DNA from: Candidatus Yanofskybacteria bacterium RIFCSPHIGHO2_01_FULL_44_24 | GTDB lineage: Bacteria; Patescibacteriota; Minisyncoccia; 2-02-FULL-40-12; GWA2-44-9 | DNA length: 59,152 bases | Direction: 5' to 3' | NCBI GenBank assembly: GCA_001794215.1 | Contig: MGJK01000018.1 | Span: 1 to 59,152 of the forward strand | Part shown: positions 4,918 through 58,840 of the stretch, piece by piece | Layout of the letters: every line of letters begins with the position of its first letter | Numbering within the stretch: the stretch's first letter is position 1 | Made by a program: the position numbers and the translations under genes | Notes under the pieces: generated by a model | Database searches by the model: none | Told to the model about the DNA's origin: nothing | Seen by the model: the letters and a program-made list of their open reading frames with translations, nothing else

Positions 4918-4955
4918 ACCCCTACCCTTTATGATATATCATAAAGGGTAGGGGT
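4918..4955. repeat. PAL24 palindrome copy 1 (core CCCTTTATGATATATCATAAAGGG at 4925-4948, extended to 38 bp by ACCCCTA/TAGGGGT arms)
   Basis: Perfect inverted repeat read directly from the sequence. Intergenic, downstream of the 3511-4830 gene. Confidence 0.9.
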
Positions 4956-13114: not shown

Positions 13115-14647
13115 ATGTTTTCAAGTTTGAATCCGCTGATAGCGGCAGTTTCGGCTTTGCTTCCAGGCTTGATAATCGGTTACCTCGTCAGACAGCTGAT
13201 AGTAAGCAGGCGAATCAGCGCCGCCGAATCTCGGGCTGAGTCTCTTCTCAATGAAGCAAAATCAAAGTCTCAGGACATTCTCCTTGAATCTAAAAACAAG
13301 GCTTTTAAGGTACTCGAAGATGCCAAGAAAGAGGAAAAAGAAAGGCATTCCCAATTAGCCAGGATAGAAAACCTGCTCACTAAAAAAGAAGATGAGCTCG
13401 AAGCCAAGCACCGGGAGGTTTCGAGTGAGAAAAACACCCTGAAAACCAAAATGGAGGAAGTGGATGCCCTGCGTGTTACCCTCCAGAATGAGAAAGCAAG
13501 GCACGTCAGCGAATTAGAAAGGGTAGCCGGACTCAGCAAAGACAAAGCTAAAGCCGAACTCGTTTCCGCCTTAGAAGACGAATACAAAGACGATCTTTAT
13601 CAAAGAATAAAGAAGCTGGAACAGGGCAATAGAGATGAACTTGATAAAAAGGCTCGTGAAATTTTAACCTTGGCTATCCAGAGATTTGCCTCATCCCACA
13701 TCGCCGATGCCACCACCACCGTAGTCAACCTGCCCTCAGATGAAGTAAAGGGTAAGATCATCGGAAAAGAGGGAAGAAATATTAAAACTATCGAACGCTT
13801 AACCGGCGTAGACGTAATCATAGACGATACCCCCGAAGCATTGGTGGTATCCGGATTCGACCCGGTCAGAAGACAGATAGCAAAGTTAGCCATCGAAAAA
13901 TTGATAGCCGACGGACGTATTCACCCGGCAAAGATAGAAGAATTGGTTGAAAAGGCTAAAAATGAAATAAATGAAAAAATGAAAGAAGCAGGGGAGGCTG
14001 CACTTTTTGAAACGGGCATCGGACCGGTAGACCAGCGCCTTGTCTATCTTTTGGGCCGCTTAGCTTTCAGGACAAGCTTCGGACAGAATGTCCTTCTTCA
14101 TTCGATCGAAATGGCCCATGTCGCCGGAATGCTTGCGGCGGAACTTGGAGCTGACGTTGGCGTAGCCAAAAAAGGCGCCTTGTTCCATGACATTGGAAAA
14201 GCAGTGGATCACGAAGTGCAAGGCACGCATGTAGAGATAGGCAGAAAAATCCTCCAGAAATTCGGTATGGATGACAAGGTCATAAAGGCCATGGAAGCCC
14301 ATCACGAAGAATACCCGTATGTGACCCTGGAATCCCGCATAGTCCAGACAGCCGATGCCATATCGGGCGGAAGGCCGGGTGCCAGAAAAGATACGGTTGA
14401 AATATACTTAAAGAGGCTCGAAGACCTCGAAAGAATCGCCGGGTCATTCGGTGGCGTTGAGAAATCTTATGCAATTCAGGCCGGCAGAGAAATGAGAATA
14501 TTCGTTACTCCTACTCAAATTGACGATTTGCAGGCTATCAAATTGGCAAAGGATATAGCCAAGAAGATAGAAGAGGAAATGAAGTACCCCGGAGAAATCA
14601 AGGTAAATGTCATCAGAGAAACTCGAGCCATAGAGTACGCCAGGTAG
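13115..14647 (+). CDS. rny: ribonuclease Y
   Basis: N-terminal TM helix, coiled coil, KH motif GKIIGKEGRNIKTIE and HD domain LFHDIGKA. Confidence 0.92.
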   Translation: MFSSLNPLIAAVSALLPGLIIGYLVRQLIVSRRISAAESRAESLLNEAKSKSQDILLESKNKAFKVLEDAKKEEKERHSQLARIENLLTKKEDELEAKHREVSSEKNTLKTKMEEVDALRVTLQNEKARHVSELERVAGLSKDKAKAELVSALEDEYKDDLYQRIKKLEQGNRDELDKKAREILTLAIQRFASSHIADATTTVVNLPSDEVKGKIIGKEGRNIKTIERLTGVDVIIDDTPEALVVSGFDPVRRQIAKLAIEKLIADGRIHPAKIEELVEKAKNEINEKMKEAGEAALFETGIGPVDQRLVYLLGRLAFRTSFGQNVLLHSIEMAHVAGMLAAELGADVGVAKKGALFHDIGKAVDHEVQGTHVEIGRKILQKFGMDDKVIKAMEAHHEEYPYVTLESRIVQTADAISGGRPGARKDTVEIYLKRLEDLERIAGSFGGVEKSYAIQAGREMRIFVTPTQIDDLQAIKLAKDIAKKIEEEMKYPGEIKVNVIRETRAIEYAR

Positions 14648-14649
14648 CC

Positions 14650-14965
14650 TCTCGACCCCGATTCTCTCGAGGCACCGCATAGATACACTCAGCCTTGACT
14701 TATTCGAGGCACGCCATAAAGACGCTCCACTTTAACCCATGCAAGGCACGGCGTAAATTTCTCACTGAAATTTCGCCTTTTACCTGCCTGCCGGCAGGCA
14801 GGCTCGGCCCAGTCGGCCTCCGTAAATCCTTTCATGGTCTAAAGCTTCGCTTGGTGTTTGAACAAAAAGCCTGCGGGAATACTCTCATGAACAAAGAGCG
14901 GGGTCTCAAATGCTTCAGAATGACAAGGGGCTTCGCCTTAGTTTCCCTTAGTCGGATTAAGGCTC
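14650..14965 (-). repeat. R1 intergenic repeat, copy A (reverse orientation), interrupted by PAL20
   Basis: The reverse complement of 14803-14880 matches GGATTTACGGAGGCCGACTGGGCCGAG and upstream units of copies B and C. It contains a covarying hairpin at 14750-14777. Confidence 0.8.
14783..14802. repeat. PAL20 perfect palindrome CCTGCCTGCCGGCAGGCAGG inserted in R1 copy A
   Basis: Copies B and C read CCGAG-TAAAAGG without interruption. Copy A has the palindrome (plus one G) at exactly this junction. Confidence 0.9.
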
Positions 14966-15181
14966 TGCTAAAATTTTTCCTATCAGGCCGTTAGCCGTCC
15001 GTCTGATAATATCAACAGTAGGGTTGATATAGCGAGGAAAATAGCGGAAAATAGAAGCAGCACTTGATTAATTGTCCGGTCGATACAATTAAGACCAACG
15101 GGTAATCCGATGCGTCTTAGACCGAGTTAAGCCTAACAAGCTTGAGGCTTTTCCGGTTGAAACGCAAAAATTTAATCGAAA

Positions 15182-19357: not shown

Positions 19358-21388
19358 ATGGGAATATTTGAGAAGATAATACCCCGCAATAAACCCAAGG
19401 AGTTTCCGATAGGGCTTCGCGACTTTACCAAGAAGGAATCAGCAAAGGCTATTCATGAGTCCCTCCCGAAGAAACCGGTCAAATCAGAAAAACCGCCTCA
19501 AGAACCTCATCAGAGGATCCCGATTGCGTTGGAAAAATTAAAAGCACAGATAGAATCTACAAAAAACCTTGAGCTAAGGCCTCGCGTTGGAATCTTAGCT
19601 GATGGTGACAAAATAGAGAACCAGCAGATTGATGTAATTGACGCAGACGACGAGGACCTTTGGAAGGTCTGTTTTAAATTAACTGAAGCCCATTACAAAC
19701 AAATACTGGGGAAAACTCGATCTGAGCCGGGCTGGTCAGAAGGACTGATATTAGTTAAACCTCGAACTGCTAATAAAAAAAAGGGGGGACCGGAAGATTC
19801 AGAAGACCATGGAATCAGGCCCTTCTTACTGAGCTCGGCTCGTTGTTATCTTATGGATGAGGGCGTGGTCGTTAAAGTCGCAACCGCCGAAACCAGAACC
19901 GGCTTCTCCAATGAGCCCATGAGAACTGCGATCGGCTTGGTGCAGGTAGAAATACCTAAAGGCGTACCCGACCAAGATAGTTTAGGGGAAAGTGTGGACG
20001 TTATTTTAAAAAAGGTATTTGAAGTTAGTGACGGACTTTCTATTCCAACAAAAGAAGCTGAGCGTCAATATAAAAAGGCCCGTTATATGTGGCACCACAA
20101 AGTAGAGAAAGATCGAGTCCCGTTTGACCTTGATTCAAGGCTCACAAGAGAAGAAGTTATGCCGGGATATTTCACCTTCGTCGAAAAGGGTAAATACCAA
20201 GAGTACCGACAAAAAACTCCTTTTGTTCTTACCCACGCACTTCACAACGTAGAGAGCCTGCCCCAAATAATTACTGCGGGAGGAATCTTGTCAACTCACG
20301 AAAGATACCGCCGAGGGCTTATTCAATCCGGTATGTCTTCAGAAAGGGATCTTGAAGTAGGCGGGGGAGACAGTGTTTTTATCAGAACTTCAACCGAAGG
20401 AAACTTTCTGACAATCCTCGGCCCCCAACTCACTATGGTTTTTGAACCTCGTATTCTGGATCGAACTGATTGGTATGCCTATATGAACGACCAGTATGGT
20501 AGCACCGATCCGGAATATTTTAGCGAAAGACTACCGCCTGCTGAACTATTTGATCTGAACAGCACCAACTCTGGCAACGAGCAAATGTTCAGAACGGGAA
20601 TAGCTTTAGCGGATATTAAAGCCCTGGTTAGTTCAGACTCCCGGAGCTTAATGAGAGCTTACGCTGTTTTAAGAAATGCCGGCATCGAAACAATAAACGG
20701 GGAACCCATGGAAGATTTTCTGGTATTGACGCCTACCGTAAGAGACGCGGCTGGACTTTCGGAAACCTTAGCTAAGCCGGATGAGGGATCTAAGGACAGT
20801 TGGCAAGATCCGGAATTCAAAACCCTTTCGAAGATTATCAAAGAAGATCCCGATAGTCTGGAGAGATACTTATACGGCGGGGCATACTATTTCATAGAAG
20901 AACTGAAAAAATATTCGAAAACTTTCGGCACGTTAAAAGATTTAGATTTTGCCAATACGTTCAATGACTGGACACGCAATAACGGTGCTTATCAGCTCGA
21001 CGCCTACCTGGGCGGCAGGGCGCTCGATGATATACGTATGCTGCTTGATCTTAAGCATGAATCAGCTACTACCCCCAAAATAGTAGAGGGGGTCTTGAGA
21101 AATTTTGAAATCAGGATTATACCATCCAGAATGAAACCTGAAGTTAAAAATAATATTTTAGCAGCCCTAAATAACCTTCACGCCTCCGTTGAAGAGGTCG
21201 TAGTTGCTGTAAGGACAGCGAAAGAAAAGTTTCAGAACCAAGGTTTTGAGACGGGATCTTCAAAAGAAGATACCCAAGATTTCATTTTGTTAGCTCAGAT
21301 AGAGGCTCGAATAACTCGGATTATAAAGATCTCCGACGGCATCGAAGGCTGGAGAAAAATATTAGCCCAGAATGAAAATACTAACTAA
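19358..21388 (+). CDS. 676-aa hypothetical protein with a central DarT/ADP-ribosyltransferase-like motif (weak)
   Basis: Long ORF. The central segment has LTHALHNVESLPQIITAGGILS, then GGGDSVFIRTS, then NEQMFRTGIALADIKALV. Its 3' end overlaps the next ORF by 17 nt. Confidence 0.75.
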   Translation: MGIFEKIIPRNKPKEFPIGLRDFTKKESAKAIHESLPKKPVKSEKPPQEPHQRIPIALEKLKAQIESTKNLELRPRVGILADGDKIENQQIDVIDADDEDLWKVCFKLTEAHYKQILGKTRSEPGWSEGLILVKPRTANKKKGGPEDSEDHGIRPFLLSSARCYLMDEGVVVKVATAETRTGFSNEPMRTAIGLVQVEIPKGVPDQDSLGESVDVILKKVFEVSDGLSIPTKEAERQYKKARYMWHHKVEKDRVPFDLDSRLTREEVMPGYFTFVEKGKYQEYRQKTPFVLTHALHNVESLPQIITAGGILSTHERYRRGLIQSGMSSERDLEVGGGDSVFIRTSTEGNFLTILGPQLTMVFEPRILDRTDWYAYMNDQYGSTDPEYFSERLPPAELFDLNSTNSGNEQMFRTGIALADIKALVSSDSRSLMRAYAVLRNAGIETINGEPMEDFLVLTPTVRDAAGLSETLAKPDEGSKDSWQDPEFKTLSKIIKEDPDSLERYLYGGAYYFIEELKKYSKTFGTLKDLDFANTFNDWTRNNGAYQLDAYLGGRALDDIRMLLDLKHESATTPKIVEGVLRNFEIRIIPSRMKPEVKNNILAALNNLHASVEEVVVAVRTAKEKFQNQGFETGSSKEDTQDFILLAQIEARITRIIKISDGIEGWRKILAQNENTN

Positions 21389-21713
21389 TAAAAAAGTTTA
21401 TTATGTTTTCTGCCCGGATGATCCGACGGTTTTGGTTGCTATGGATATTAAACTGACCGACTCGAACACAATAACCTGGCTTGATACCGTCAAGGAAAGG
21501 TCAATGACCATAGAAAGGGTCGCGGAAAACGTCGAAGATCGGTTCGTATTCGACAGAAGCCAAAAAGAGGGCGGGGGCACCTACACATTTGTTCCAATGA
21601 CACTCGCTATATATAATGACGGGGTGAAAAGTCACCTTCTTTCTCCCGGAGACTTTGAATCCGAAGAGAAAATGATCGAAGCTTTTGAAAAGACCAGGTC
21701 TAACATTTGGTAA
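21372..21713 (+). CDS. 113-aa hypothetical protein, translationally coupled
   Basis: Its ATG lies inside the last codons of the upstream gene. No motif recognised. Confidence 0.6.
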   Translation: MKILTNKKVYYVFCPDDPTVLVAMDIKLTDSNTITWLDTVKERSMTIERVAENVEDRFVFDRSQKEGGGTYTFVPMTLAIYNDGVKSHLLSPGDFESEEKMIEAFEKTRSNIW

Positions 21714-21715
21714 AC

Positions 21716-22762
21716 ATGATTAAGGAATTACTCTATCCAAAAAAAGATGCTCCTGCCGCTAAAATCGAGAAGGTTTCAGAGTACGACGTTGTGCTGAATA
21801 ATCCCGAAATTGTTTCCCATACGGCTTTAGACTTTAAACTTCCTGAATACGAGGGCAGAGAGTTAAGGCCCGGTCATAAAATAATCTTTAAAGTGCCCGA
21901 TGACTTTAAGGACAGAGTAATTAGAGATGTGATCTTGCGCCATCGGAAAGGAAATACATACAGAGTCGATATAGGTCCGGACGGCCATGATCCTTACGGC
22001 GCATATAGTCGAGTAGAATTGAGGGACTCAAAATCAGGACAATGGCGCGAGTGGAGGGATCCCGCCGGATATAATCCGGTTAAATTTGCCGAACCAAGAT
22101 CTGCCGGAGATCCCGAGAATGAGGTTCTGCATGATTGGGTAGCTATGGTTGGAATTATAACACCTGACGCCGCGAGAGTGACCAATGAGGGCAAAGACGA
22201 TAGATATAGCGTTTCTCAAATTCACGGTCTTGAGATGGTCTTTTTTCCAGAGCAAGAGGGCTTAACTTATAATCAAAATATCTATACCCAAGGAACGTCT
22301 TTTATTGACTTTGCAAGTAAAAACCTCCTCCCTCAATACGGCGGAGGCGAGCATACGGCCGGTGTTTATAAAGATGCTGTTGTTCTGGGCAGTTATCACT
22401 CCAAAGACCAAGAAATACATGGAGAATCTTCATTGAACACAAGAGTAGAGGGTTCTCGGTTAATTATTAAACCTACGCCCGGGAAAAAGATAGTGCAGAT
22501 AGAGGTTGCCATCGGCGATACCGAGCACAGGCCGGATGGGAATAATCGCTTAGGTTGGGCCAAGCTATGGGTAGGAATCAGAAGAAGTTCCAGTCGAAAT
22601 ATAGACTGGTTTATAAAAAACGCTAACGTACCGCCCCAGGGCGTAATAGCTGGCGGACCGCACATAGATCAAGGCCTAATAAATCCTGATGATGAAATTA
22701 TAATAGAATCAAGAAATGACACCTCTTATATAATGGGCTGGCGTTTAGCCTCTAAAGATTAA
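21716..22762 (+). CDS. hypothetical beta-rich protein (about 349 aa)
   Basis: ATG at 21716, 3 nt after the upstream stop; the track's TTG at 21707 is an alternative. A strong terminator follows. Confidence 0.7.
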   Translation: MIKELLYPKKDAPAAKIEKVSEYDVVLNNPEIVSHTALDFKLPEYEGRELRPGHKIIFKVPDDFKDRVIRDVILRHRKGNTYRVDIGPDGHDPYGAYSRVELRDSKSGQWREWRDPAGYNPVKFAEPRSAGDPENEVLHDWVAMVGIITPDAARVTNEGKDDRYSVSQIHGLEMVFFPEQEGLTYNQNIYTQGTSFIDFASKNLLPQYGGGEHTAGVYKDAVVLGSYHSKDQEIHGESSLNTRVEGSRLIIKPTPGKKIVQIEVAIGDTEHRPDGNNRLGWAKLWVGIRRSSSRNIDWFIKNANVPPQGVIAGGPHIDQGLINPDDEIIIESRNDTSYIMGWRLASKD

Positions 22763-22780
22763 AGCCATAGATAGTTCTTT

Positions 22781-22818
22781 CCAAAACAAAAACCAGCTGT
22801 TGCTGGTTTTTGTTTTGG
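22781..22818 (+). terminator. strong rho-independent terminator (17-bp stem)
   Basis: CCAAAACAAAAACCAGC-TGTT-GCTGGTTTTTGTTTTGG. Confidence 0.8.
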
Positions 22819-22916
22819 AAATTGAAATTAGGTTGCCTTTTAGCCCTCCTCATATTATCATAAAGACAAGTTTTAGCAGTGTTAAATAAAATCGCGGGTA
22901 TCGTATAATGGTAGTA

Positions 22917-22936
22917 CCTGCCTGCCGGCAGGCAGG
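22917..22936. repeat. PAL20 perfect palindrome CCTGCCTGCCGGCAGGCAGG at the anticodon-arm position of the outer tRNA
   Basis: Identical 20-mer to 14783-14802, with the same TA...C flanks. Confidence 0.9.
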
Positions 22937-22966
22937 CGGCAACAATTTATAATATGGATTGAGTGA

Positions 22967-23037
22967 GCGGGATTCGTATATCGGTAATACATGAGTTTTC
23001 CAAACTCAAGAGACGGGTTCGACTCCCGTATCCCGCT
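22967..23037 (+). tRNA. tRNA-Gly (anticodon UCC)
   Basis: Hand-folded cloverleaf. Acceptor GCGGGAT/ATCCCGC, D stem GTAT/ATAC, anticodon stem TGAGT/ACTCA with loop TTTCCAA, T arm ACGGG-TTCGACT-CCCGT, discriminator T. No encoded CCA. Confidence 0.9.
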
Positions 23038-23097
23038 CAGTCAATCTATGTTCAGTTAGACTGTCGGCCGGGGTTCGATTCCCCGTACCCGCTCTAT

Positions 23098-23139
23098 ATC
23101 AAATCAGAGACACCCACTGCTGGGTGTTTTTGATTTGAT
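23098..23139 (+). terminator. terminator hairpin after the tRNA locus
   Basis: ATCAAATCA...ACACCCA-CTGC-TGGGTGT-TTT-TGATTTGAT, a nested inverted repeat with a T-run. Confidence 0.65.
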
Positions 23140-23315
23140 ACGCGAAGGTAGGGGGATCGAAGTGCCGGAGCGTTGTAATCACCAGCAGGTGACTACCGCG
23201 AGGAGGGGTCGCGACTTTTGTGAGGCGGCGGCCGAACAAAAAGTTGTGACCGATTCCCCATACCTTCAATTTTGTCCAAGCAATGGCAAAGACAAAACTT
23301 GTAGCCGATCCCCAA

Positions 23316-23343
23316 TTGACACATTTTTAAATACCTATATACT
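23316..23343 (+). promoter_or_regulatory. candidate sigma70-like promoter
   Basis: TTGACA, 16 nt, TATACT, about 28 nt upstream of the ATG at 23372, which is preceded by GGAGG. Confidence 0.4.
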
Positions 23344-23371
23344 TCTGGCAGAACATTGAATTGGAGGACAT

Positions 23372-23596
23372 ATGGCAAAATCTATCGGCCTTTTGGCAAT
23401 TTTTGGATATATTCTGTTTCTTGCCGGCTGGGTATTGGGCGGAATAAACTACTTTGACGGAATGACTCCACTGGTCCCCAAGGATAGCATTGAAGCAAAA
23501 ATGATGATGTTCGGGATGTGCATGCTCGTTATTTCTGTAACCAGTTTGTCCTATTCTGTCTTCTTCAAGAAGAACAGAAAGGACTTAGCGGCTTAA
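23372..23596 (+). CDS. 74-aa two-helix membrane protein
   Basis: GGAGGA RBS, two hydrophobic helices, and a terminator hairpin (23587-23609) overlapping the stop. Confidence 0.6.
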   Translation: MAKSIGLLAIFGYILFLAGWVLGGINYFDGMTPLVPKDSIEAKMMMFGMCMLVISVTSLSYSVFFKKNRKDLAA

Positions 23597-23685
23597 TAGC
23601 CGCTTTTTTAATTGCTTTTAGCCCTTTCTGCTGATAAGCTATGTATATAAAATAGGCCAACCGATGGCTGTCAAAAGATTTTTAT

Positions 23686-24060
23686 ATGGATATCAAAGAA
23701 ACTATATTTGAGTTAGAAAATAAACTTCAGCAACCCGATGTTAGAAAGTCAGTGGAGCAACTTAACGACCTAATCTCGGATGATTTAATAGAATTCGGGA
23801 GTTCCGGTCTCGTATACACCAAGCAAGATGTTTTGGGTAATCTTCCCGCCTCTTCTGAAATTAAATTTGTCATGACTGATTTTAAAATAAACATACTGTC
23901 TGCCGACATTGTTCAATCTACATTCAAAACAGAGAAAACGGATATCGAGACGGGTAAAATCAGCCGATCTTTGAGAAGTTCATTATGGAGAAATGCAAAT
24001 GGTAAATGGAGAATGATATTTCACCAAGGGACTCCATTTGGTGTAAAAAGTAATCTTTGA
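23686..24060 (+). CDS. NTF2/SnoaL-like (DUF4440-like) small protein
   Basis: 124 aa. The length and the pattern LEFGSSG...W..NANGKWRMIFHQGT resemble DUF4440 proteins (from memory). Confidence 0.6.
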   Translation: MDIKETIFELENKLQQPDVRKSVEQLNDLISDDLIEFGSSGLVYTKQDVLGNLPASSEIKFVMTDFKINILSADIVQSTFKTEKTDIETGKISRSLRSSLWRNANGKWRMIFHQGTPFGVKSNL

Positions 24061-24446
24061 TGACTTCTCAAAAGATTCCCGCCCCCATAGGTCAAGGCTC
24101 GCCGAAACCGTCTAACCTCCTCAAGCAACACACTCCGAATATGAAAGGAATACTCTCAAAAATATTTTTTCTTTTATTCTTGATTACCGCAGTAACGTCG
24201 GTCTTTTTTACTGTATTTCCCCTGGAAAATGGCGGACCTTGTTCTTGCCTGGGAATCAGTTACGGAATCGGATCTGTTATTAAAACGGCTGTCGAACTTC
24301 AGGCGTTAAAATCGACCACTTGCCCGCCCCTTGCAGGATGCGGACCTTCCGTCTATGTAATTCCGCTTGATTTGTATCTTATTACCGCTATTTTTATAGT
24401 CCTGTGGTCAATATGGAGAAAGAGGGATCGTTTCCATTCCCAATAA
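24060..24446 (+). CDS. membrane protein, function unknown
   Basis: The ATG overlaps the upstream TGA (TGATG). Hydrophobic helices at the N- and C-terminus. The internal ATG at 24141 is an alternative start. Confidence 0.5.
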   Translation: MTSQKIPAPIGQGSPKPSNLLKQHTPNMKGILSKIFFLLFLITAVTSVFFTVFPLENGGPCSCLGISYGIGSVIKTAVELQALKSTTCPPLAGCGPSVYVIPLDLYLITAIFIVLWSIWRKRDRFHSQ

Positions 24447-24562
24447 GTTCTATCCTCGTCGCCTCAAATACATGCCTCTTTTGTCAATATTCCACCCACT
24501 CTTGACAGATAGCTACAGAATGCTAACATACCTATAGTTCCGTAGACGCATCGGGGGTTACG

Positions 24563-24733
24563 ATGAGTCGCTATCTCTTTGCCATAGTTACTACTTTTGT
24601 GGGAATGCTCCTTCTATATAGCGGGGGATACGGGGGTTGGAATAATCAGATCTCCCGAATTCTTATCGGCACAAGCGGATTCTTATTTATTCTTATGGCT
24701 TTCGTAGTGGCTTTCTATGGCAAGCGCACCTGA
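24563..24733 (+). CDS. 56-aa two-helix membrane micro-protein (not in ORF track)
   Basis: GGGGG RBS 5 nt upstream, and TTGACA-16/17 nt-TAACAT further upstream. Sequence MSRYLFAIVTTFVGMLLLYSGG...LFILMAFVVAFYGKRT. Confidence 0.4.
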   Translation: MSRYLFAIVTTFVGMLLLYSGGYGGWNNQISRILIGTSGFLFILMAFVVAFYGKRT

Positions 24734-24790
24734 TGGGCGCTTCTTTATTTGACTAAAACGATACAAATATACTCCAAATAAAAACGTCCA

Positions 24791-24961
24791 TCAGGGACGT
24801 CTACGAAATTTCTTTTCTAATTGAGCGCCCTTCTGGGGGTCGGCTACGGCTTCTGCCCCTAAGGCTTCGGCCACTTCCTTGGGACTGACCCTGCGATAAG
24901 TTCTGCCGGTAACTTTTATCTTTTCGTAGGTTTTACTCCCGGTCTTTTGTTTCTTTGCCAT
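24791..24961 (-). CDS. 56-aa basic hypothetical protein
   Basis: Start moved to ATG 24961 (GGAGG 6 nt upstream). The stop lies in the loop of an ACGTCC/GGACGT terminator hairpin followed by a T-run. Confidence 0.5.
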   Translation of the reverse strand: MAKKQKTGSKTYEKIKVTGRTYRRVSPKEVAEALGAEAVADPQKGAQLEKKFRRRP

Positions 24962-25091
24962 AACATGCCTCCGATGAAGAACTTGATCTATCATGCCATA
25001 AATCTCGCACCATGAAAAGAAGTCTCCGGATTGACTATAGAGAAATTTAATATGCCATTAAGGCCGAATAGCACACGAACAAGAGGCTTCC

Positions 25092-25307
25092 TTGGAATTA
25101 ACGTTCCGGTTAGTTAAAGCCATTTATTTTCCCATGCCATGGCGTACATTGTCAGTTCTTGTAATCGTTGGTTTAGGAGTCGCTCTATATACCCATGAAT
25201 TAGACTTCCTTATATCAGCCATTCTGCTTGCATTCCCTATTAATCTGATCGTAGTCGTAGCCCACATCCTAATATCTAACGGAGCCTGGCAAGCTCTTGG
25301 GACCTGA
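25092..25307 (+). CDS. small two-helix membrane protein
   Basis: TTG start (alternative ATG at 25134). Hydrophobic. Weak support. Confidence 0.35.
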   Translation: MELTFRLVKAIYFPMPWRTLSVLVIVGLGVALYTHELDFLISAILLAFPINLIVVVAHILISNGAWQALGT

Positions 25308-25407
25308 GATGCAAGTCCTTTTTAATTGATTTCAGCCGACCCCGCTGATAAAATAAGAATAGAAAATAACCTAACAAACACTCGAGTCTTGAATCTGTTT
25401 TAATATA

Positions 25408-26157
25408 ATGCCTACGCCACTCTCTATTCTGAACCTTAACTGCTGGTTATTCCCACCGCCGCTGTCTTCAGATTGTGAAGCCCGCCTTACTAATATTATA
25501 AAGATTATAAACGAGCACGGTCCCGATATTATTACCCTGCAAGAAATATGGTCGAATAAACATCTAAGATATTTAAAAGATGAGCTTTCCGATTATACTG
25601 CGCTTTCTTCCGGATCTATGATTTATAATCGAAGCGGTTTAGTAACTTTTACAAAACCGCGGCCTGCGTCATCAAAAATAGGCTTTTTCAAGCTCTCCAT
25701 AAAACATAATCCGACCGAGTGGTTTTTGCATAGAGGGTATATCAAGGTAGATCTAAAATTAAATAACCACGATTTCAGCATTATAAATACCCACCTATAC
25801 GCGCCTTTTTCTACGAGAGCGAAAGCAATTACGGAACATCAATTTGAGGAATTAATAAAAAACATCCCCTCCTCAGGTAGTGTCCTCATCTCAGGGGACT
25901 TGAATATCGACGAACAAAAGTTCGCCAAAATGAATCAGGATAAATTCTTGAGACTATGCGATTCCCAGCCGACTTCCGATGCGAAAAACCCTTATAGCTA
26001 CGGGAGGTTCAACAGACTGATGTCGCACGAGAATAAGAAAATTGATTATATGCTTTTCAGAGGGAAGATCCTCCCGAAATCTGAGTATCAGTTAATTCAA
26101 GCCCCCTTCGTTTCCGACCATTATCCCATGTTCTGCCGTCTTAATTTCGAATTTTAA
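25408..26157 (+). CDS. endonuclease/exonuclease/phosphatase (EEP) family protein, sphingomyelinase-like
   Basis: LNLNCW...DIITLQEIW, NTHL, GDLN and the C-terminal SDHYP motif. Confidence 0.8.
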   Translation: MPTPLSILNLNCWLFPPPLSSDCEARLTNIIKIINEHGPDIITLQEIWSNKHLRYLKDELSDYTALSSGSMIYNRSGLVTFTKPRPASSKIGFFKLSIKHNPTEWFLHRGYIKVDLKLNNHDFSIINTHLYAPFSTRAKAITEHQFEELIKNIPSSGSVLISGDLNIDEQKFAKMNQDKFLRLCDSQPTSDAKNPYSYGRFNRLMSHENKKIDYMLFRGKILPKSEYQLIQAPFVSDHYPMFCRLNFEF

Positions 26158-26165
26158 ACGCCACT

Positions 26166-26711
26166 ATGAAAAAGTACTTAGGACTTTCGAAATACCATAT
26201 GGGCGTTGTAGCCATCTACGCCCTGTTGACTCCTCTCCTGTTTATTCTTTTATCGGGCGAGTTGAATTACGGCTTTACTCGGGGTTATTTCGGAGTAGTA
26301 ATAACAATCGTCGCCTGCACAGTTTTTGGTTTTTTCTATTTTCTACGGTCCGATTGGGCCAGAAGACCCCATCTAAAGCTATACCGGGTCTTCTTGGCAA
26401 CCCTATATGGAGTTACCTTTGCGTTCCCAGAAGAAATAATTTTTCGCGGAATAATTCAAAAGTTCATTCAAGTATACCATGCCGATGTGATCGCTGCGAT
26501 TTTCTTTTCTGCGCTGATATTCGGAATGGCGCATTTGTTTAATGGCGCAAGTAATTTTCACCCGCTAAATTGGAATTGGAAATTTGCCGGACTAACGTTT
26601 TTAACCGGATTGATCCTGGGTTCAATCTTCGCCCTGACGAATAGTTTACTGATAACCACCTTGCTTCATGCTTTATTTGTCACCTACCTCAGGTTAATTA
26701 ACAGGGGATAA
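26166..26711 (+). CDS. CPBP (CAAX/Abi) family intramembrane metalloprotease
   Basis: EEIIFRG, FGMAHL and LLHALF motifs in a polytopic protein. Confidence 0.8.
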   Translation: MKKYLGLSKYHMGVVAIYALLTPLLFILLSGELNYGFTRGYFGVVITIVACTVFGFFYFLRSDWARRPHLKLYRVFLATLYGVTFAFPEEIIFRGIIQKFIQVYHADVIAAIFFSALIFGMAHLFNGASNFHPLNWNWKFAGLTFLTGLILGSIFALTNSLLITTLLHALFVTYLRLINRG

Positions 26712-26779
26712 GAGGCTCCCTTGATTCTCGTCTTTAAAAGCGTTAGTTTGGTGACAGTTCGTTTTCAACCGGAAGGCCC

Positions 26780-27118
26780 ATGAACGACAAAAAAGACTTC
26801 GGTCTTGTTTTCTGGATTCATTTAGCCATTATCCTGCTCTTTTATTCTTCACCGTTCCTTTTCTCCTGGAAAGTCATAACCGGCACTATCTTTCTTTATT
26901 ATTTGCAGTTGTTAGTTTTTAAAGGTTGCGTACTGACAAAGGTAGAGTTGGAATCAAGAGGGGAGAGACGATCTTTTAATTACTACTACTTGGCTAAGCT
27001 CGGCCTGAAAATGGATGAGAAAAAGTTTATCTTTATCCTCGATTTCATCGTTCCCTGGGCAGTCGTCGCCCTTGCCTTCCTATGGCAAGCAGCCCTTGGT
27101 CATTCCACAGTATTTTAA
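26780..27118 (+). CDS. membrane protein, function unknown
   Basis: 112 aa with 3-4 hydrophobic helices. A bidirectional terminator follows. Confidence 0.55.
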   Translation: MNDKKDFGLVFWIHLAIILLFYSSPFLFSWKVITGTIFLYYLQLLVFKGCVLTKVELESRGERRSFNYYYLAKLGLKMDEKKFIFILDFIVPWAVVALAFLWQAALGHSTVF

Positions 27119-27141
27119 ATCCCGCGATAGCGGGATTTTTA
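27117..27141. terminator. bidirectional terminator between convergent genes
   Basis: AAATCCCGC-GATA-GCGGGATTTTT. Confidence 0.7.
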
Positions 27142-27145
27142 GTAA

Positions 27146-28174
27146 TCAGGACTGAACCTTGCGGATGATCTCGTCAGTCATCTCAGTAGTACTGGCCGGT
27201 TTGCCGACACGATGTAAAAGATGGGCGTCTCCGGTGACAACACGGCCCTCGAAAACAACCTGGTAAACCGATTCTCTAATTTTCTTAGCTGCTTCGCTCT
27301 CTCCGATATGCTCGAGCATCATTACCGCGGAAAGAATCAGAGCCGATGGATTTGCTTTATTCTGGCCTGCGATATCCGGCGCCGTACCATGAACCGCCTC
27401 AAATAATGCTACGCCTTCTCCGATATTCGCTCCGGGCGTAAAGCCCAAACCCCCTACTAAACCGGCGCATTCATCAGAAAGGATATCCCCGAACATATTC
27501 GTTAAAACAATAACATCGTATTCGGAAGGATACATAACAAGTTCTTTGGCCATATTATCGACGATCCTGTCCTGGAAGACAATATCGGGATAGCGGGCCG
27601 AGATGCTTCTTCCGGCATTCAGAAAAAGTCCCTGGGTGAGTTTAAGAATATTGGCCTTATGAGCGCAGGTCACCTTCTTTCTGCCGTGCTTCGTTGCATA
27701 CTCAAAAGCGTGCCGGAAAATACGCTCTGATTCAAATTTGCTTATTCGGCTTACGGCCTCGGCTATAGTATGCGCATCATCTACCCACCGCTCCTCACCG
27801 ATATAAATATCCTCGGTCCCTTGCCTGAAAACAACGATATCAACGTCCTTAAATGGAGTGATCTGACCGGGAATAATCTTCACCGGCCGGATGTTAGCGT
27901 AAAGATCGAGCTTCATGCGAAGCTCGACATTAGCACTACGGTGGCCTTCGCCTAACGGAGTATCAGTTGGGCCTTTCAAGCCCAACTTATTCCGTATTAG
28001 GGAATCAAGGGTCTCCTTCGGCAGAGCGTTACCGGTTTCTTTTAGAACCCCCAGCCCGGCACGTGCAACTTCCCAGTCTATTTTCACACCGGCAGCCTCA
28101 ATCACCCGTTGAGTTGCGGCAGTGACTTCCGGTCCGATTCCATCTCCAAGAATAAGCGTAGCTCTATAGGCCAT
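27146..28174 (-). CDS. isocitrate/isopropylmalate dehydrogenase family enzyme (NAD-IDH/homoisocitrate-DH-like)
   Basis: LILGDGIGPEV, RSANVELRMKLDLYANIRP and NMFGDILSDE. Confidence 0.85.
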   Translation of the reverse strand: MAYRATLILGDGIGPEVTAATQRVIEAAGVKIDWEVARAGLGVLKETGNALPKETLDSLIRNKLGLKGPTDTPLGEGHRSANVELRMKLDLYANIRPVKIIPGQITPFKDVDIVVFRQGTEDIYIGEERWVDDAHTIAEAVSRISKFESERIFRHAFEYATKHGRKKVTCAHKANILKLTQGLFLNAGRSISARYPDIVFQDRIVDNMAKELVMYPSEYDVIVLTNMFGDILSDECAGLVGGLGFTPGANIGEGVALFEAVHGTAPDIAGQNKANPSALILSAVMMLEHIGESEAAKKIRESVYQVVFEGRVVTGDAHLLHRVGKPASTTEMTDEIIRKVQS

Positions 28175-28283: not shown

Positions 28284-28327
28284 TAAACCGCCGCCCTTTA
28301 TGATATATCATAAAGGGCGGCGGTTTA
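28284..28327. repeat. PAL24 palindrome copy 2 (44-bp perfect palindrome; core 28294-28317)
   Basis: TAAACCGCCG-CCCTTTATGATATATCATAAAGGG-CGGCGGTTTA. Intergenic, downstream of the PBP1A gene. Confidence 0.9.
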
Positions 28328-42860: not shown

Positions 42861-42884
42861 CCCTTTATGATATATCATAAAGGG
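42861..42884. repeat. PAL24 palindrome copy 3 (core only)
   Basis: CCCTTTATGATATATCATAAAGGG. The flanks are not complementary here. Confidence 0.9.
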
Positions 42885-42902: not shown

Positions 42903-43045
42903 CTTGGTTTATGGAAATTTTTGTTTAAACGATAAGCGAAGCCTTAACCCGATGAAGGGATTTACGGAGGCCGACTGGGCCGAGTAAAAGGCAAGATTTT
43001 AGCAAAAATCTATGCCGTGCCCTGAAATGGGTTAAGGCGAAGCAC
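42903..43045 (+). repeat. R1 intergenic repeat, copy B
   Basis: 42952-43026 is identical (75/75 by my alignment) to 58999-59073. Hairpin at 42990-43016. Confidence 0.85.
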
Positions 43046-58796: not shown

Positions 58797-58840
58797 CAAT
58801 CCGCCACCCTTTATGATATATCATAAAGGGTGGCGGATTG
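58797..58840. repeat. PAL24 palindrome copy 4 (44-bp perfect palindrome; core 58807-58830)
   Basis: CAATCCGCCA-CCCTTTATGATATATCATAAAGGG-TGGCGGATTG. Confidence 0.9.

What the first reader, a model, noticed from the sequence alone, without database searches (positions are those of the whole stretch)
22894..23093. A complete tRNA-Gly(UCC) is nested between the two halves of a second Gly-like tRNA whose anticodon arm is replaced by a 20-bp palindrome
The segments in order are:
- 22894-22917: GCGGGTA-TC-GTAT-AATGGTA-GTAC, an acceptor 5' strand plus a complete D arm.
- 22917-22936: the PAL20 palindrome, exactly where the anticodon arm should begin. Its apex reads T-GCC-GGC-A.
- 22937-22966: a 30-nt AT-rich spacer containing TATAAT (22948-22953).
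- 22967-23037: a canonical 71-nt tRNA-Gly(UCC).
- 23038-23063: a CAGTC-16 nt-GACTG hairpin.
- 23069-23093: CGGGG-TTCGATT-CCCCG-TACCCGC-T, a T arm plus an acceptor 3' strand.

The 3' acceptor strand is exactly complementary to 22894-22900. About 151 nt separate the two halves. The outer halves are not copies of the inner tRNA; their stems differ and are internally compatible. They carry Gly identity features (C2:G71, G3:C70, U73). I could not draw a canonical 5-bp/7-nt anticodon arm for the outer molecule.

I see four possibilities:
- A tRNA-Gly(GCC)-type gene disrupted by insertion of PAL20 plus a tRNA cassette.
- A tRNA with a novel large intervening sequence that is processed out.
- A split tRNA.
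- An assembly artefact.

Nested tRNA genes are, to my knowledge, very unusual in bacteria.
Basis: seen in the sequence. Interest (0 to 1): 0.8.

Follow-up and report, generated by a model that had tools for sequence, protein, structure and literature searches.

The report
Foreign tRNA-Gly nested in broken resident gene
In an uncultivated groundwater bacterium (Candidatus Yanofskybacteria), the normal glycine tRNA gene has been broken by three small lesions, one of which inserted a complete working copy of the same tRNA from a related lineage, so the "outer tRNA" is a dead shell and not a new kind of intron or split tRNA.

Summary
It is not an artefact.

The outer halves are not a GCC-type tRNA. 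They are the canonical tRNA-Gly(UCC) of this clade, found intact in 20 metagenome contigs. Removing PAL20 (20 bp) and a 113-bp block rebuilds that 71-nt gene, apart from a 4-nt deletion that removes the anticodon and one A>G change.

- **PAL20:** it lies in the D-stem 3' strand and does not replace the anticodon arm.
- **Cassette:** the 111-bp cassette sits in the anticodon stem.
- **Inner tRNA:** it matches 71/71 the native tRNA-Gly(UCC) that is the positional ortholog in another Yanofskybacteria lineage (L075).

Best reading: a foreign ortholog replaced the resident gene in place. It is expressed from its own -10 box and/or the resident promoter, and uses the resident terminator. How it got in is only inferred. 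A 16-nt inverted repeat flush with the inner tRNA is unexplained.

The most novel item is PAL20. The exact 20-mer is a precise insertion without target duplication at two window sites, and occurs in 35 stretches of unrelated viral contigs, against 0 for two control palindromes.

The parts
22778..22821 (.). Perfect 20-bp-arm hairpin, likely a bidirectional terminator of the upstream 351-aa gene. It marks the upstream limit of the tRNA transcription unit.
   Evidence: I2, 100% complementary, 4-nt loop; sequence
22833..22861 (+). Promoter-like site of the resident gene (TTGCCT-17-TATCAT)
   Evidence: 9 of 12 matches. This is a consensus match only; function is inferred.
22894..22916 (+). Resident (A-type) tRNA-Gly(UCC) pseudogene, positions 1-23: acceptor 5' strand and D arm up to A23
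   Evidence: Identical to the canonical gene found intact in 20 metagenome loci
22917..22936 (.). PAL20 (CCTGCCTGCCGGCAGGCAGG), a precise 20-bp insertion between positions 23 and 24 of the resident gene (D-stem 3' strand). The position is ambiguous by 1 nt.
22937..22941 (+). Resident gene positions 24-28 (CGGCA): end of the D stem, position 26, and start of the anticodon stem
22942..22966 (+). Cassette leader, 25 nt. It contains TATAAT at 22948-22953, at the distance where relatives' tRNA-Gly genes carry their -10 box, and the left inverted-repeat arm at 22951-22966.
   Evidence: (I1)
22967..23037 (+). Inner (B-type) tRNA-Gly(UCC), canonical and presumably the functional gene. It matches 71/71 the native gene of lineage L075/L076.
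23038..23052 (+). Cassette trailer. Together with U73 it forms the right inverted-repeat arm (23037-23052), complementary to 22951-22966.
23053..23093 (+). Resident gene positions 27-71. The CA of positions 27-28 is duplicated. A 4-nt deletion (TTCC, which is U33 plus the anticodon) and one A>G change lie at 23058-23059. From 23060 onward, 34 of 34 nt match the canonical gene.
23097..23140 (+). Terminator hairpin of the resident gene. It is conserved in L025 and, in diverged form, after the B-type gene of L075. It is the only terminator available to the inner gene.
   Evidence: (I3)
23144..23267 (+). Conserved structured element closed by a stem whose 3' strand repeats the tRNA 3' end (CGATTCCCCATACC at 23251-23264). 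It is an att-like direct repeat or a small RNA, and part of the locus history.
   Evidence: (D4, I4)
14783..14802 (.). Second PAL20 copy, a clean 20-bp insertion in one copy of a dispersed repeat. The empty sites are at about 43033/43032 and 59033/59032.

Best explanation
**What it is (shown).** The locus is the orthologous, normally single tRNA-Gly(UCC) gene of a Candidatus Yanofskybacteria genome. It has been inactivated in place by three lesions.

1. A precise 20-bp palindrome (PAL20) inserted in the D-stem 3' strand.
2. A 111-bp cassette inserted in the anticodon-stem 5' strand, with CA duplicated at the junctions.
3. A 4-nt deletion that removes U33 and the anticodon, plus one substitution.

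The cassette carries a complete tRNA-Gly(UCC) allele that differs from the resident one. It is identical to the native ortholog of another Yanofskybacteria lineage. The arrangement is therefore a foreign ortholog sitting inside the corpse of the gene it replaced.

**How it works now (inferred).** The inner gene is transcribed from the TATAAT it brought with it and/or from the resident promoter. Transcription reads through the dead 3' half to the resident terminator. RNase P matures the 5' end. The gene encodes no CCA, so the 3' end needs an endonucleolytic cut after U73 followed by CCA addition. The outer fragments have no decoding role.

**How it arose (inferred, weakest step).**
- A short foreign DNA fragment spanning -25 to +15 of a B-type gene was captured at a break in the anticodon stem of the resident gene.
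- The capture was probably guided by homology between the two orthologs. They share an identical 13-nt block, AGTTTTCCAAACT, exactly where the lesions lie.
- The insertion survived only because it restored the essential tRNA it had destroyed.
- Once the resident gene was redundant, the PAL20 insertion and the loop deletion were tolerated.
- The trailer is an inverted copy of the leader, flush with the acceptor stem. This suggests the fragment was extended by snap-back synthesis primed from the acceptor-stem inverted repeat.
For: **Resident gene.**
- The canonical gene is intact and identical in 20 loci with unrelated flanks.
- Removing the two insertions reconstructs 66 of 67 aligned nt, with one 4-nt gap at the anticodon.
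- The 3' 34-35 nt are 100% identical to the canonical gene although they were not part of the search pattern.

**Orthologous position.**
- Relatives have DAO, a trypsin-like protease, tRNA-Gly(UCC) and PBP1A in this order.
- L025 shares the terminator and the downstream element at 82% identity, and its gene is intact.

**Inner gene.**
- It is canonical.
- It differs from the outer gene by compensatory changes in all four stems.
- It is 71/71 identical to the L075/L076 gene. That gene is the positional ortholog there, followed by tRNA-Arg, tRNA-Pro and tRNA-His, as the A-type gene is in L084/L085.
- ARAGORN finds only one tRNA in the 59-kb window.

**Other points.**
- Taxon: RNase Y is 78-82% identical to named Yanofskybacteria MAGs.
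- Not an artefact: the locus is identical in independent assemblies.
- The outer gene is not called by ARAGORN with intron models or by Rfam.
- PAL20 is an independent insertion. The second window copy has two empty-site paralogs, and viral contigs give further filled/empty pairs.
Against: - The donor locus with the cassette's own leader and trailer was not found. L075's flanks differ and have no inverted repeat, so the mode of entry is unproven.
- Only one contig of the genome is available, so I cannot show that no other tRNA-Gly(UCC) exists.
- The outer remnants carry only one substitution in 67 nt. The event is therefore recent, or the shell is under some constraint.
- Identity of the B allele between lineages does not date the transfer, because the A allele is equally invariant across lineages whose RNase Y differs by about 20%.
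- No expression data exist.
Confidence: 0.8

Rival explanations
1. The cassette is, or is the remnant of, a mobile element that actively targets tRNA-Gly(UCC) genes and carries its own replacement tRNA. It could be a MITE-like unit bounded by the 16-nt inverted repeat, or the stump of an integrative element whose body was later deleted.
For: - The 16-nt inverted repeat is flush with the inner tRNA, and its right end coincides exactly with the resumption of resident sequence.
- CA is duplicated at the junctions.
- The locus is an integration hot spot. There are about 3.5 kb of extra genes upstream and about 5 kb downstream relative to relatives, and an att-like repeat of the tRNA 3' end lies at 23251-23264.
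- Such 3'-end repeats mark site-specific integration at tRNA and tmRNA genes (PMC2764846).
Against: - There is a single copy. No second cassette is in the window or in any of the 85 fetched loci, and the inner 5' 24-mer is absent from viral contigs.
- The left repeat arm is 9 nt inside the left junction, so the repeats are not terminal.
- No integrase or transposase was found among the ten neighbouring ORFs scanned.
- Integrase-type insertion would give chimeric tRNAs, not a complete gene nested in another.
Confidence: 0.12
2. The inner gene is a diverged local duplicate (paralog) of the resident gene and not a horizontally acquired ortholog.
For: Both genes share unusual features, such as U8-C9 and the GTAT D stem, and 78-79% identity.
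Against: - The inner gene is 71/71 identical to the native positional ortholog of another lineage.
- The outer remnants are identical to the A allele of many lineages.
- Relatives show one tRNA-Gly(UCC) at this locus, each with one allele.
- A duplicate could not become identical to another lineage's allele through 15 changes by chance.
Confidence: 0.04
3. The architecture is functional. The outer halves form a processed or split tRNA or tRNA-like RNA after the inner tRNA and PAL20 are removed at the RNA level. This would be a novel intervening sequence, or a two-piece RNA held together by the 16-bp helix.
For: - The 200-nt unit folds into a nested cloverleaf-in-cloverleaf with z = -7.8.
- The outer acceptor, D and T arms are intact.
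- A single promoter and terminator frame the unit.
- The outer remnants show almost no decay.
Against: - After removal of both insertions the anticodon loop is 3 nt and has no anticodon.
- There is no intron family hit, and ARAGORN intron models fail.
- Every relative has the plain uninterrupted gene.
- There is no comparative support, because only one species carries the arrangement.
- The strong fold is expected from two tRNA sequences and a perfect palindrome.
Confidence: 0.03
4. Assembly artefact (chimeric join of two tRNA-Gly loci).
For: Two Logan contigs end inside the inner tRNA. This shows that the de Bruijn graph branches there.
Against: The same 301 nt appear in three assemblies from different samples. 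The record names differ in style (scaffold_ versus k141_), which suggests different assemblers; that part is my inference. The Logan contigs agree through PAL20 and into the inner gene.
Confidence: 0.01

Closest known systems
Xenologous (orthologous) gene displacement, and tRNA pseudogenes created by insertion
   Same: A foreign ortholog takes over the function while the resident copy decays. The resident promoter, terminator and genomic position are retained.
   Different: The incoming ortholog sits physically inside the resident gene, in the anticodon stem, so that one tRNA gene is nested in the other. I found no description of this in bacteria in the searchable literature.
Site-specific integration of genomic islands and phages into tRNA/tmRNA genes, with 3'-end direct repeats (for example the ssrA islands of Dehalococcoides, PMC2764846)
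   Same: The tRNA locus is an integration hot spot. A 14-nt (19-nt in L025) direct repeat of the tRNA 3' end lies downstream, and extra gene blocks sit on both sides.
   Different: Classical integration restores the tRNA by supplying only its 3' part. It leaves no complete second tRNA inside the first. No integrase was found nearby.
Bacterial group I introns in tRNA anticodon loops; archaeal BHB introns; split and tri-split tRNAs (my own knowledge of these families)
   Same: An intervening sequence separates the 5' and 3' parts of a tRNA gene.
   Different: There is no ribozyme. The insertions are in stems, not at loop positions. The anticodon itself is deleted, so no splicing could restore a decoder. 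Both halves lie in one transcription unit.
REP/REPIN elements, Rickettsia palindromic elements, and mobile GC clusters or double-hairpin elements of fungal mitochondria (my own knowledge), as comparators for PAL20
   Same: These are short GC-rich palindromes that spread within genomes. They land in intergenic DNA and sometimes in RNA genes.
   Different: PAL20 is only 20 bp and perfectly palindromic. It is inserted without target duplication. It is identical in a CPR bacterium and in viral contigs of 38-68% GC. Known families are longer, imperfect and lineage-specific.

Membership tests
Canonical bacterial tRNA-Gly (inner gene 22967-23037) | Cloverleaf scored by covariance model or ARAGORN, with anticodon UCC | tested here: met
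   ARAGORN tRNA-Gly(tcc); Rfam RF00005 61.1 bits against a gathering score of 29
Canonical bacterial tRNA-Gly (inner gene 22967-23037) | Glycine identity elements G1:C72, C2:G71, G3:C70, U73, C35, C36 | tested here: met
   Read directly from the sequence. The list of identity elements is from my own knowledge.
Functional tRNA (outer gene) | Contiguous cloverleaf with a 7-nt anticodon loop and an anticodon | tested here: not met
   Not called by ARAGORN, with or without intron models, or by Rfam. After removal of the insertions the loop is 3 nt and the anticodon is deleted.
Clade-canonical tRNA-Gly(UCC) gene (outer gene as its ortholog) | Sequence identity to the intact gene and the same genomic neighbourhood | tested here: met
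   66 of 67 aligned nt identical after removal of the insertions. Protease - tRNA - PBP1A synteny and a shared terminator.
Group I intron in tRNA | Group I ribozyme core, inserted in the anticodon loop | tested here: not met
   No Intron_gpI hit at E<=10 over 22800-23200. The insert is 111-142 nt and lies in stems.
Archaeal-type intron / split tRNA | Exons that rejoin to give a complete anticodon arm; halves transcribed separately for split tRNA | tested here: not met
   The rejoined sequence lacks the anticodon. Both halves lie between one promoter-like site and one terminator.
Integrative element at a tRNA gene | Direct repeat of the tRNA 3' end at the far boundary | tested here: met
   CGATTCCCCGTACC at 23076-23089 and CGATTCCCCATACC at 23251-23264; a 19-nt exact repeat in L025. 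This concerns the downstream element, not the nested cassette.
Integrative element at a tRNA gene | Integrase gene adjacent to the att site | tested here: not met
   No recombinase domain in the ten flanking ORFs scanned against Pfam
MITE (cassette 22942-23052) | Terminal inverted repeats, target-site duplication, and multiple copies | tested here: not met
   The inverted repeat is present but the left arm is 9 nt internal. Only an ambiguous 2-bp CA duplication is seen. No other copy is in the window or in the fetched loci.
REP/REPIN-type palindromic repeat (PAL20) | Short palindrome, multi-copy, non-coding location | tested here: met
   Two copies in 59 kb, both non-coding; 35 viral stretches
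REP/REPIN-type palindromic repeat (PAL20) | Lineage-specific sequence with an associated RAYT/HUH transposase | tested here: inconclusive
   The identical 20-mer occurs in unrelated contigs of 38-68% GC. No protein family is shared by all PAL20 contigs, but only fragments of those genomes were available.

The most novel reading that the evidence does not exclude
PAL20 (CCTGCCTGCCGGCAGGCAGG) is an undescribed, ultra-small mobile palindrome. This 20-bp unit inserts precisely, without target-site duplication, into non-coding structured DNA such as tRNA D arms and variable loops, hairpin loops and dispersed repeats. It does so in genomes as different as a CPR bacterium and many unrelated phage-like contigs. 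That implies a trans-acting machinery that carries or recognises this exact sequence. A less likely companion reading is that the inverted-repeat-flanked tRNA cassette is a homing unit that targets its own ortholog and replaces it.
Probability: 0.45. Interest if true: 0.75.

Novelty: new variant of a known kind. Interest (0 to 1): 0.5.

Why it matters
- **Annotation.** The case removes an apparent exception: there is no bacterial tRNA with a giant intron and no split tRNA here. It shows that nested tRNA signals can be decoded by finding the intact ortholog.
- **Evolution.** It is a caught-in-the-act example of an essential single-copy tRNA gene being replaced in place by a foreign ortholog in a reduced CPR genome. 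Replacement may be possible only because the incoming DNA both destroys and restores the function. This bears on how translation-apparatus genes are exchanged among Patescibacteria, and on tRNA loci as recombination hot spots.
- **PAL20.** If confirmed as a mobile 20-bp palindrome shared by phages and CPR bacteria, it would be a new and unusually minimal kind of selfish DNA. It would also be a source of tRNA pseudogenes.

Tried and rejected
**Searches that found nothing useful**
- Megablast of 20000-26000 against GenBank phages gave no match.
- The genome-contig scan with the upstream 351-aa protein gave only CPR homologs at about 53% identity, without synteny.
- No closer relative exists for the 351-aa protein or for the protease, so no sister strain could be examined.
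- The outer and inner 5' 24-mers are absent from viral contigs.
- BLAST of the cassette against phages gave only generic tRNA hits at 77-79%.
- Four literature searches on nested or interrupted bacterial tRNA genes, and one on the PAL20 sequence, found no precedent.

**Readings tested and dropped**
- In-silico splicing of the outer halves at 896 junction combinations gave only tRNAs with 2- or 4-nt 'anticodons' or arbitrary anticodons created by the join.
- The idea that the CAGTC...GACTG hairpin is the outer anticodon arm with a 16-nt loop was dropped once the intact gene was known.
- The idea that CGGC (22937-40 and 23065-68) is a target duplication of a variable-loop insertion was dropped for the same reason. 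The left CGGC is positions 24-27; the right one is the true variable loop.
- Integron-cassette boundaries (GTTRRRY / RYYYAAC) do not fit.
- tmRNA and permuted tmRNA: only the T arm matches weakly, and ARAGORN -m finds nothing.
- The cyano-S1 leader hit (22.3 bits against a gathering score of 39.9) is caused by the palindrome.

**PAL20 side checks**
- Technical-artefact explanations (adapters, linkers) were rejected. The insertion is at the same base in independent libraries, and the flanks are continuous.
- The search for a shared mobilising protein among PAL20 contigs found only phage structural genes shared by a subset.

Full report
**1. The observation**

- ARAGORN finds one tRNA in the whole 59-kb window, tRNA-Gly(UCC) at 22967-23038.
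- Rfam scores 22967-23037 at 61.1 bits, against a gathering score of 29.
- PAL20 (CCTGCCTGCCGGCAGGCAGG) is a perfect palindrome at 22917-22936, with a second exact copy at 14783-14802. None is expected by chance.
- The outer and inner genes are 78-79% identical in both halves (D1/D2).
- The exact 301 nt around the locus occur in three ENA assemblies from different samples. Two Logan contigs agree through PAL20 into the inner gene. An assembly artefact is therefore excluded.

**2. What the outer halves are**

I scanned metagenome contigs with the outer 5' 24-mer and got 27 loci. Twenty of them carry one and the same intact 71-nt gene, in many unrelated flanks:

GCGGGTA TC GTAT AATGGTA GTAC G GCAGT TTTCCAA ACTGT CGGC CGGGG TTCGATT CCCCG TACCCGC T

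This is a tRNA-Gly(UCC), not a GCC type. The window's 3' part (23060-23093/4) is 100% identical to it, although that part was not in the search pattern.

Mapping the canonical gene onto the window gives the following, using linear numbering 1-71 (Sprinzl = linear + 1 in the middle of the gene):

| Window coordinates | Content |
|---|---|
| 22894-22916 | Resident gene positions 1-23 |
| 22917-22936 | PAL20 |
| 22937-22941 | Positions 24-28 (CGGCA) |
| 22942-23052 | 111-nt cassette |
| 23053-23057 | Positions 27-31 (CAGTT; CA is duplicated) |
| 23058-23059 | AG |
| 23060-23093 | Positions 38-71 |

Deleting PAL20 and 113 nt rebuilds the gene except for two changes. One is a 4-nt gap (TTCC, which is U33 plus the anticodon). 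The other is one A>G change.

Three consequences follow.
- PAL20 is inserted in the D-stem 3' strand (GTA^CGGCA). It does not replace the anticodon arm.
- The cassette is inserted in the anticodon-stem 5' strand.

The outer gene cannot decode. ARAGORN with intron models does not call it. Rfam finds no intron family at E<=10.

**3. Genomic and taxonomic context**

RNase Y (13115-14647) is 78-82% identical to proteins named Candidatus Yanofskybacteria (Parcubacteria/Patescibacteria).

In relatives the neighbourhood is rny - hup - (patatin) - DAO - trypsin-like protease(-) - tRNA-Gly(UCC) - PBP1A(-) or further tRNAs.

The window keeps this order, with extra material on both sides of the tRNA.
- About 3.5 kb lies upstream (19358-22762). 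It holds three proteins of unknown function whose homologs, at 58% identity or less, are all in CPR genomes.
- About 5 kb lies downstream.

The outer gene is therefore the positional ortholog of the clade's tRNA-Gly(UCC), in an integration hot spot.

Contig L025 has the intact gene followed by the same terminator and a downstream element, 82% identical over about 205 nt. The unit is framed as follows:
- the upstream gene's perfect hairpin (22778-22821);
- a promoter-like TTGCCT-17-TATCAT (22833-22861);
- a 20-bp-arm terminator hairpin (23097-23140).

**4. What the inner gene is**

The inner tRNA has all the glycine identity elements. It differs from the outer gene by paired changes in the acceptor, D, anticodon and T stems. 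It is a functional allele, not a decaying copy.

It is 71/71 identical to the tRNA-Gly(UCC) of contigs L075 and L076, whose RNase Y is 81% identical to the window's. In those contigs it sits after hup and is followed by tRNA-Arg(UCU), tRNA-Pro and tRNA-His. That is the same series that follows the A-type gene in L084/L085. It is therefore the ortholog of the A-type gene in another lineage.

Other lineages carry further alleles at the same place: L077 (A-like), L080 (B-like), and L072/L082 (a third type). Each has a single gene.

The window thus holds a foreign ortholog inside its own ortholog.

The timing is open, for two reasons. The flanks of the L075 gene differ from the cassette's leader and trailer, so L075 is not the immediate donor. 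These alleles are also invariant over wide divergence, so identity does not date the transfer.

**5. The cassette**

It spans 25 nt upstream and 15 nt downstream of the gene. The leader contains TATAAT (22948-22953), 14-19 nt before G1. Relatives' tRNA-Gly genes have their (extended) -10 boxes at this distance. It has no -35 box and no terminator of its own.

The last 16 nt of the leader pair with U73 plus the 15-nt trailer in 15 of 16 positions. This helix is continuous with the acceptor stem (I1). Only 12 of 2,000,000 random 16-mer pairs from the window reach that level. The right end of this repeat is exactly where resident sequence resumes.

The native L075 locus has no such repeat. No second copy of the cassette is in the window, in any fetched locus, or in viral contigs.

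**6. Most likely explanation**

*Shown.* A resident tRNA-Gly(UCC) gene is dead through three lesions, and a complete foreign ortholog is nested in it.

*Inferred: expression.* Transcription starts from the cassette's -10 box and/or the resident promoter and ends at the resident terminator. RNase P matures the 5' end. After U73 comes CAG, not CCA, so an endonucleolytic 3' cut plus CCA addition is needed.

*Inferred: origin.*
- A short foreign fragment was captured at a break in the anticodon stem.
- It was probably guided by the similarity of the two orthologs. The longest identical block, AGTTTTCCAAACT, lies exactly at the lesions.
- It was fixed because it restored the essential function it destroyed.
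- The PAL20 insertion and the anticodon deletion were then tolerated.
- The flush inverted repeat suggests snap-back synthesis from the acceptor-stem repeat. This is speculation.

*Rivals.*

| Rival | Confidence |
|---|---|
| Targeting mobile cassette, or stump of an integrative element | 0.12 |
| Local paralog | 0.04 |
| Functional nested, intron or split RNA | 0.03 |
| Assembly artefact | 0.01 |

The 200-nt unit folds as a nested cloverleaf with z = -7.8. Two tRNA sequences plus a perfect palindrome would give that regardless of function.

**7. PAL20**

In the window, both copies are clean 20-bp insertions without target duplication.
- In the tRNA, compare with the canonical gene.
- At 14783 it sits in one copy of a dispersed repeat. 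The other copies, near 43033 and 59033, read ...gcctttta|ctcggccc... uninterrupted.

The exact 20-mer occurs in 35 stretches (about 40 sites) of IMG/VR viral contigs with GC from 0.38 to 0.68. Two control palindromes of the same composition give 0 and 0. An exact copy is absent from 2.3 Gb of GenBank phages and 7.3 Gb of plasmids.

Filled and empty pairs exist within viral contigs:

| Filled site | Empty counterpart |
|---|---|
| L068 515 | L068 822-855 (34 nt, 100%) |
| L040 14278 | L040 7535-7561 |
| L053 6720 | L053 6033-6076 |
| Three copies of a hairpin repeat in L057/L065 | At least five copies of the same repeat |

Three viral sites lie in tRNA genes or fragments.
- L061: the variable loop of an otherwise intact tRNA-Met.
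- L038: the same site in a related phage, with the T arm partly deleted.
- L068: a D arm.

No target consensus appears. No protein is shared by all PAL20 contigs. No paper contains the sequence. PAL20 is thus a real, recurrent, precisely inserted unit whose mobilisation is unexplained. It is the most novel element of the finding.

**8. Comparison with known systems and verdict**

The nearest concepts are these:
- xenologous displacement of an ortholog;
- tRNA pseudogenes made by insertion;
- tRNA and tmRNA genes as integration sites with 3'-end direct repeats (PMC2764846).

A 14-nt repeat of the tRNA 3' end lies at 23251-23264, and a 19-nt one in L025.

The locus fails the defining tests of group I introns, BHB introns, split tRNAs, tmRNA and MITEs. 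Physical nesting of a complete ortholog inside the gene it replaces was not found in the literature I could search.

I rate it a new variant of a known kind, of moderate interest. PAL20 is the lead most worth following.

Noticed in passing
IMG/VR loci L037-L071 (e.g. L061 2284, L038 8616, L068 515, L057 2648/9001/10422/10690, L043 2773/2806/3829): The exact PAL20 20-mer occurs in 35 stretches of unrelated viral contigs (GC 0.38-0.68), against 0 for two control palindromes. Several filled/empty site pairs show precise 20-bp insertion. Three sites are in tRNA genes or fragments.
   Followed up: partly
L068 440-980: Two copies of a tRNA 5' half (CCCCGGTAGCTCAGTTGGTAGAGCGGTTGGCT) lie about 300 nt apart, and the first is interrupted by PAL20. 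They flank a small ORF that reads like a GIY-YIG nuclease. After CT of the anticodon loop, the second copy continues into sequence resembling a group I intron. I judged this by eye only.
   Followed up: no
window 23141-23270; L025 2509-2645: A conserved structured element of about 125 nt lies just after the tRNA terminator. It is 82% identical between the two contigs, with 5 compensatory pairs. A long stem closes it, and the stem's 3' strand is a direct repeat of the tRNA 3' end (14 nt in the window, 19 nt exact in L025). It has no Rfam match. It could be a small RNA or the stump of an integrated element.
   Followed up: partly
window 14648-15110: About 430 nt of extra DNA lie between rny and hup compared with seven relatives. 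This DNA contains one copy of a dispersed repeat, whose other copies are at 43050-42930(-) and 59090-58960(-).
   Followed up: partly
window 4918-4955, 28284-28327, 42861-42884, 58797-58840: A second family of perfect palindromes, 24-44 bp long, has the core CCCTTTATGATATATCATAAAGGG. Two copies lie next to the dispersed repeat, and one lies at the leuB/PBP1A boundary of the block of extra genes downstream of the tRNA. The window has 11 perfect palindromes of 16 bp or more, against 0-3 in shuffles.
   Followed up: no
window 19358-22762 and 23300-28174: Blocks of extra genes flank the tRNA locus on both sides relative to Yanofskybacteria relatives. Upstream are proteins of 676, 113 and 351 aa with no Pfam domain. 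The 351-aa protein has about 95 homologs at 58% identity or less, and all the named ones are from CPR bacteria.
   Followed up: partly
L023 versus L026 (and the window): The tRNA-Gly gene has opposite orientation relative to the flanking PBP1A and protease genes in different lineages. L023 and L025 share the 60 nt upstream of the tRNA but differ immediately downstream. The tRNA gene seems to be a recombination breakpoint.
   Followed up: no
L010, L012, L013, L027, L034, L075: 20-45 nt upstream of tRNA-Gly: A conserved motif GGGC(C/T)TGCCCGCC(G/T)AAGC... precedes the tRNA-Gly gene in several lineages, both A-type and B-type. It may be the end of another RNA gene or a regulatory hairpin.
   Followed up: no
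L007 and L008 (Logan contigs), 3' ends: Both contigs stop inside the inner tRNA, at positions of about 30 and 46. This suggests that other sequences sharing its k-mers, meaning B-type tRNA-Gly genes of other organisms, are present in the same samples.
   Followed up: no
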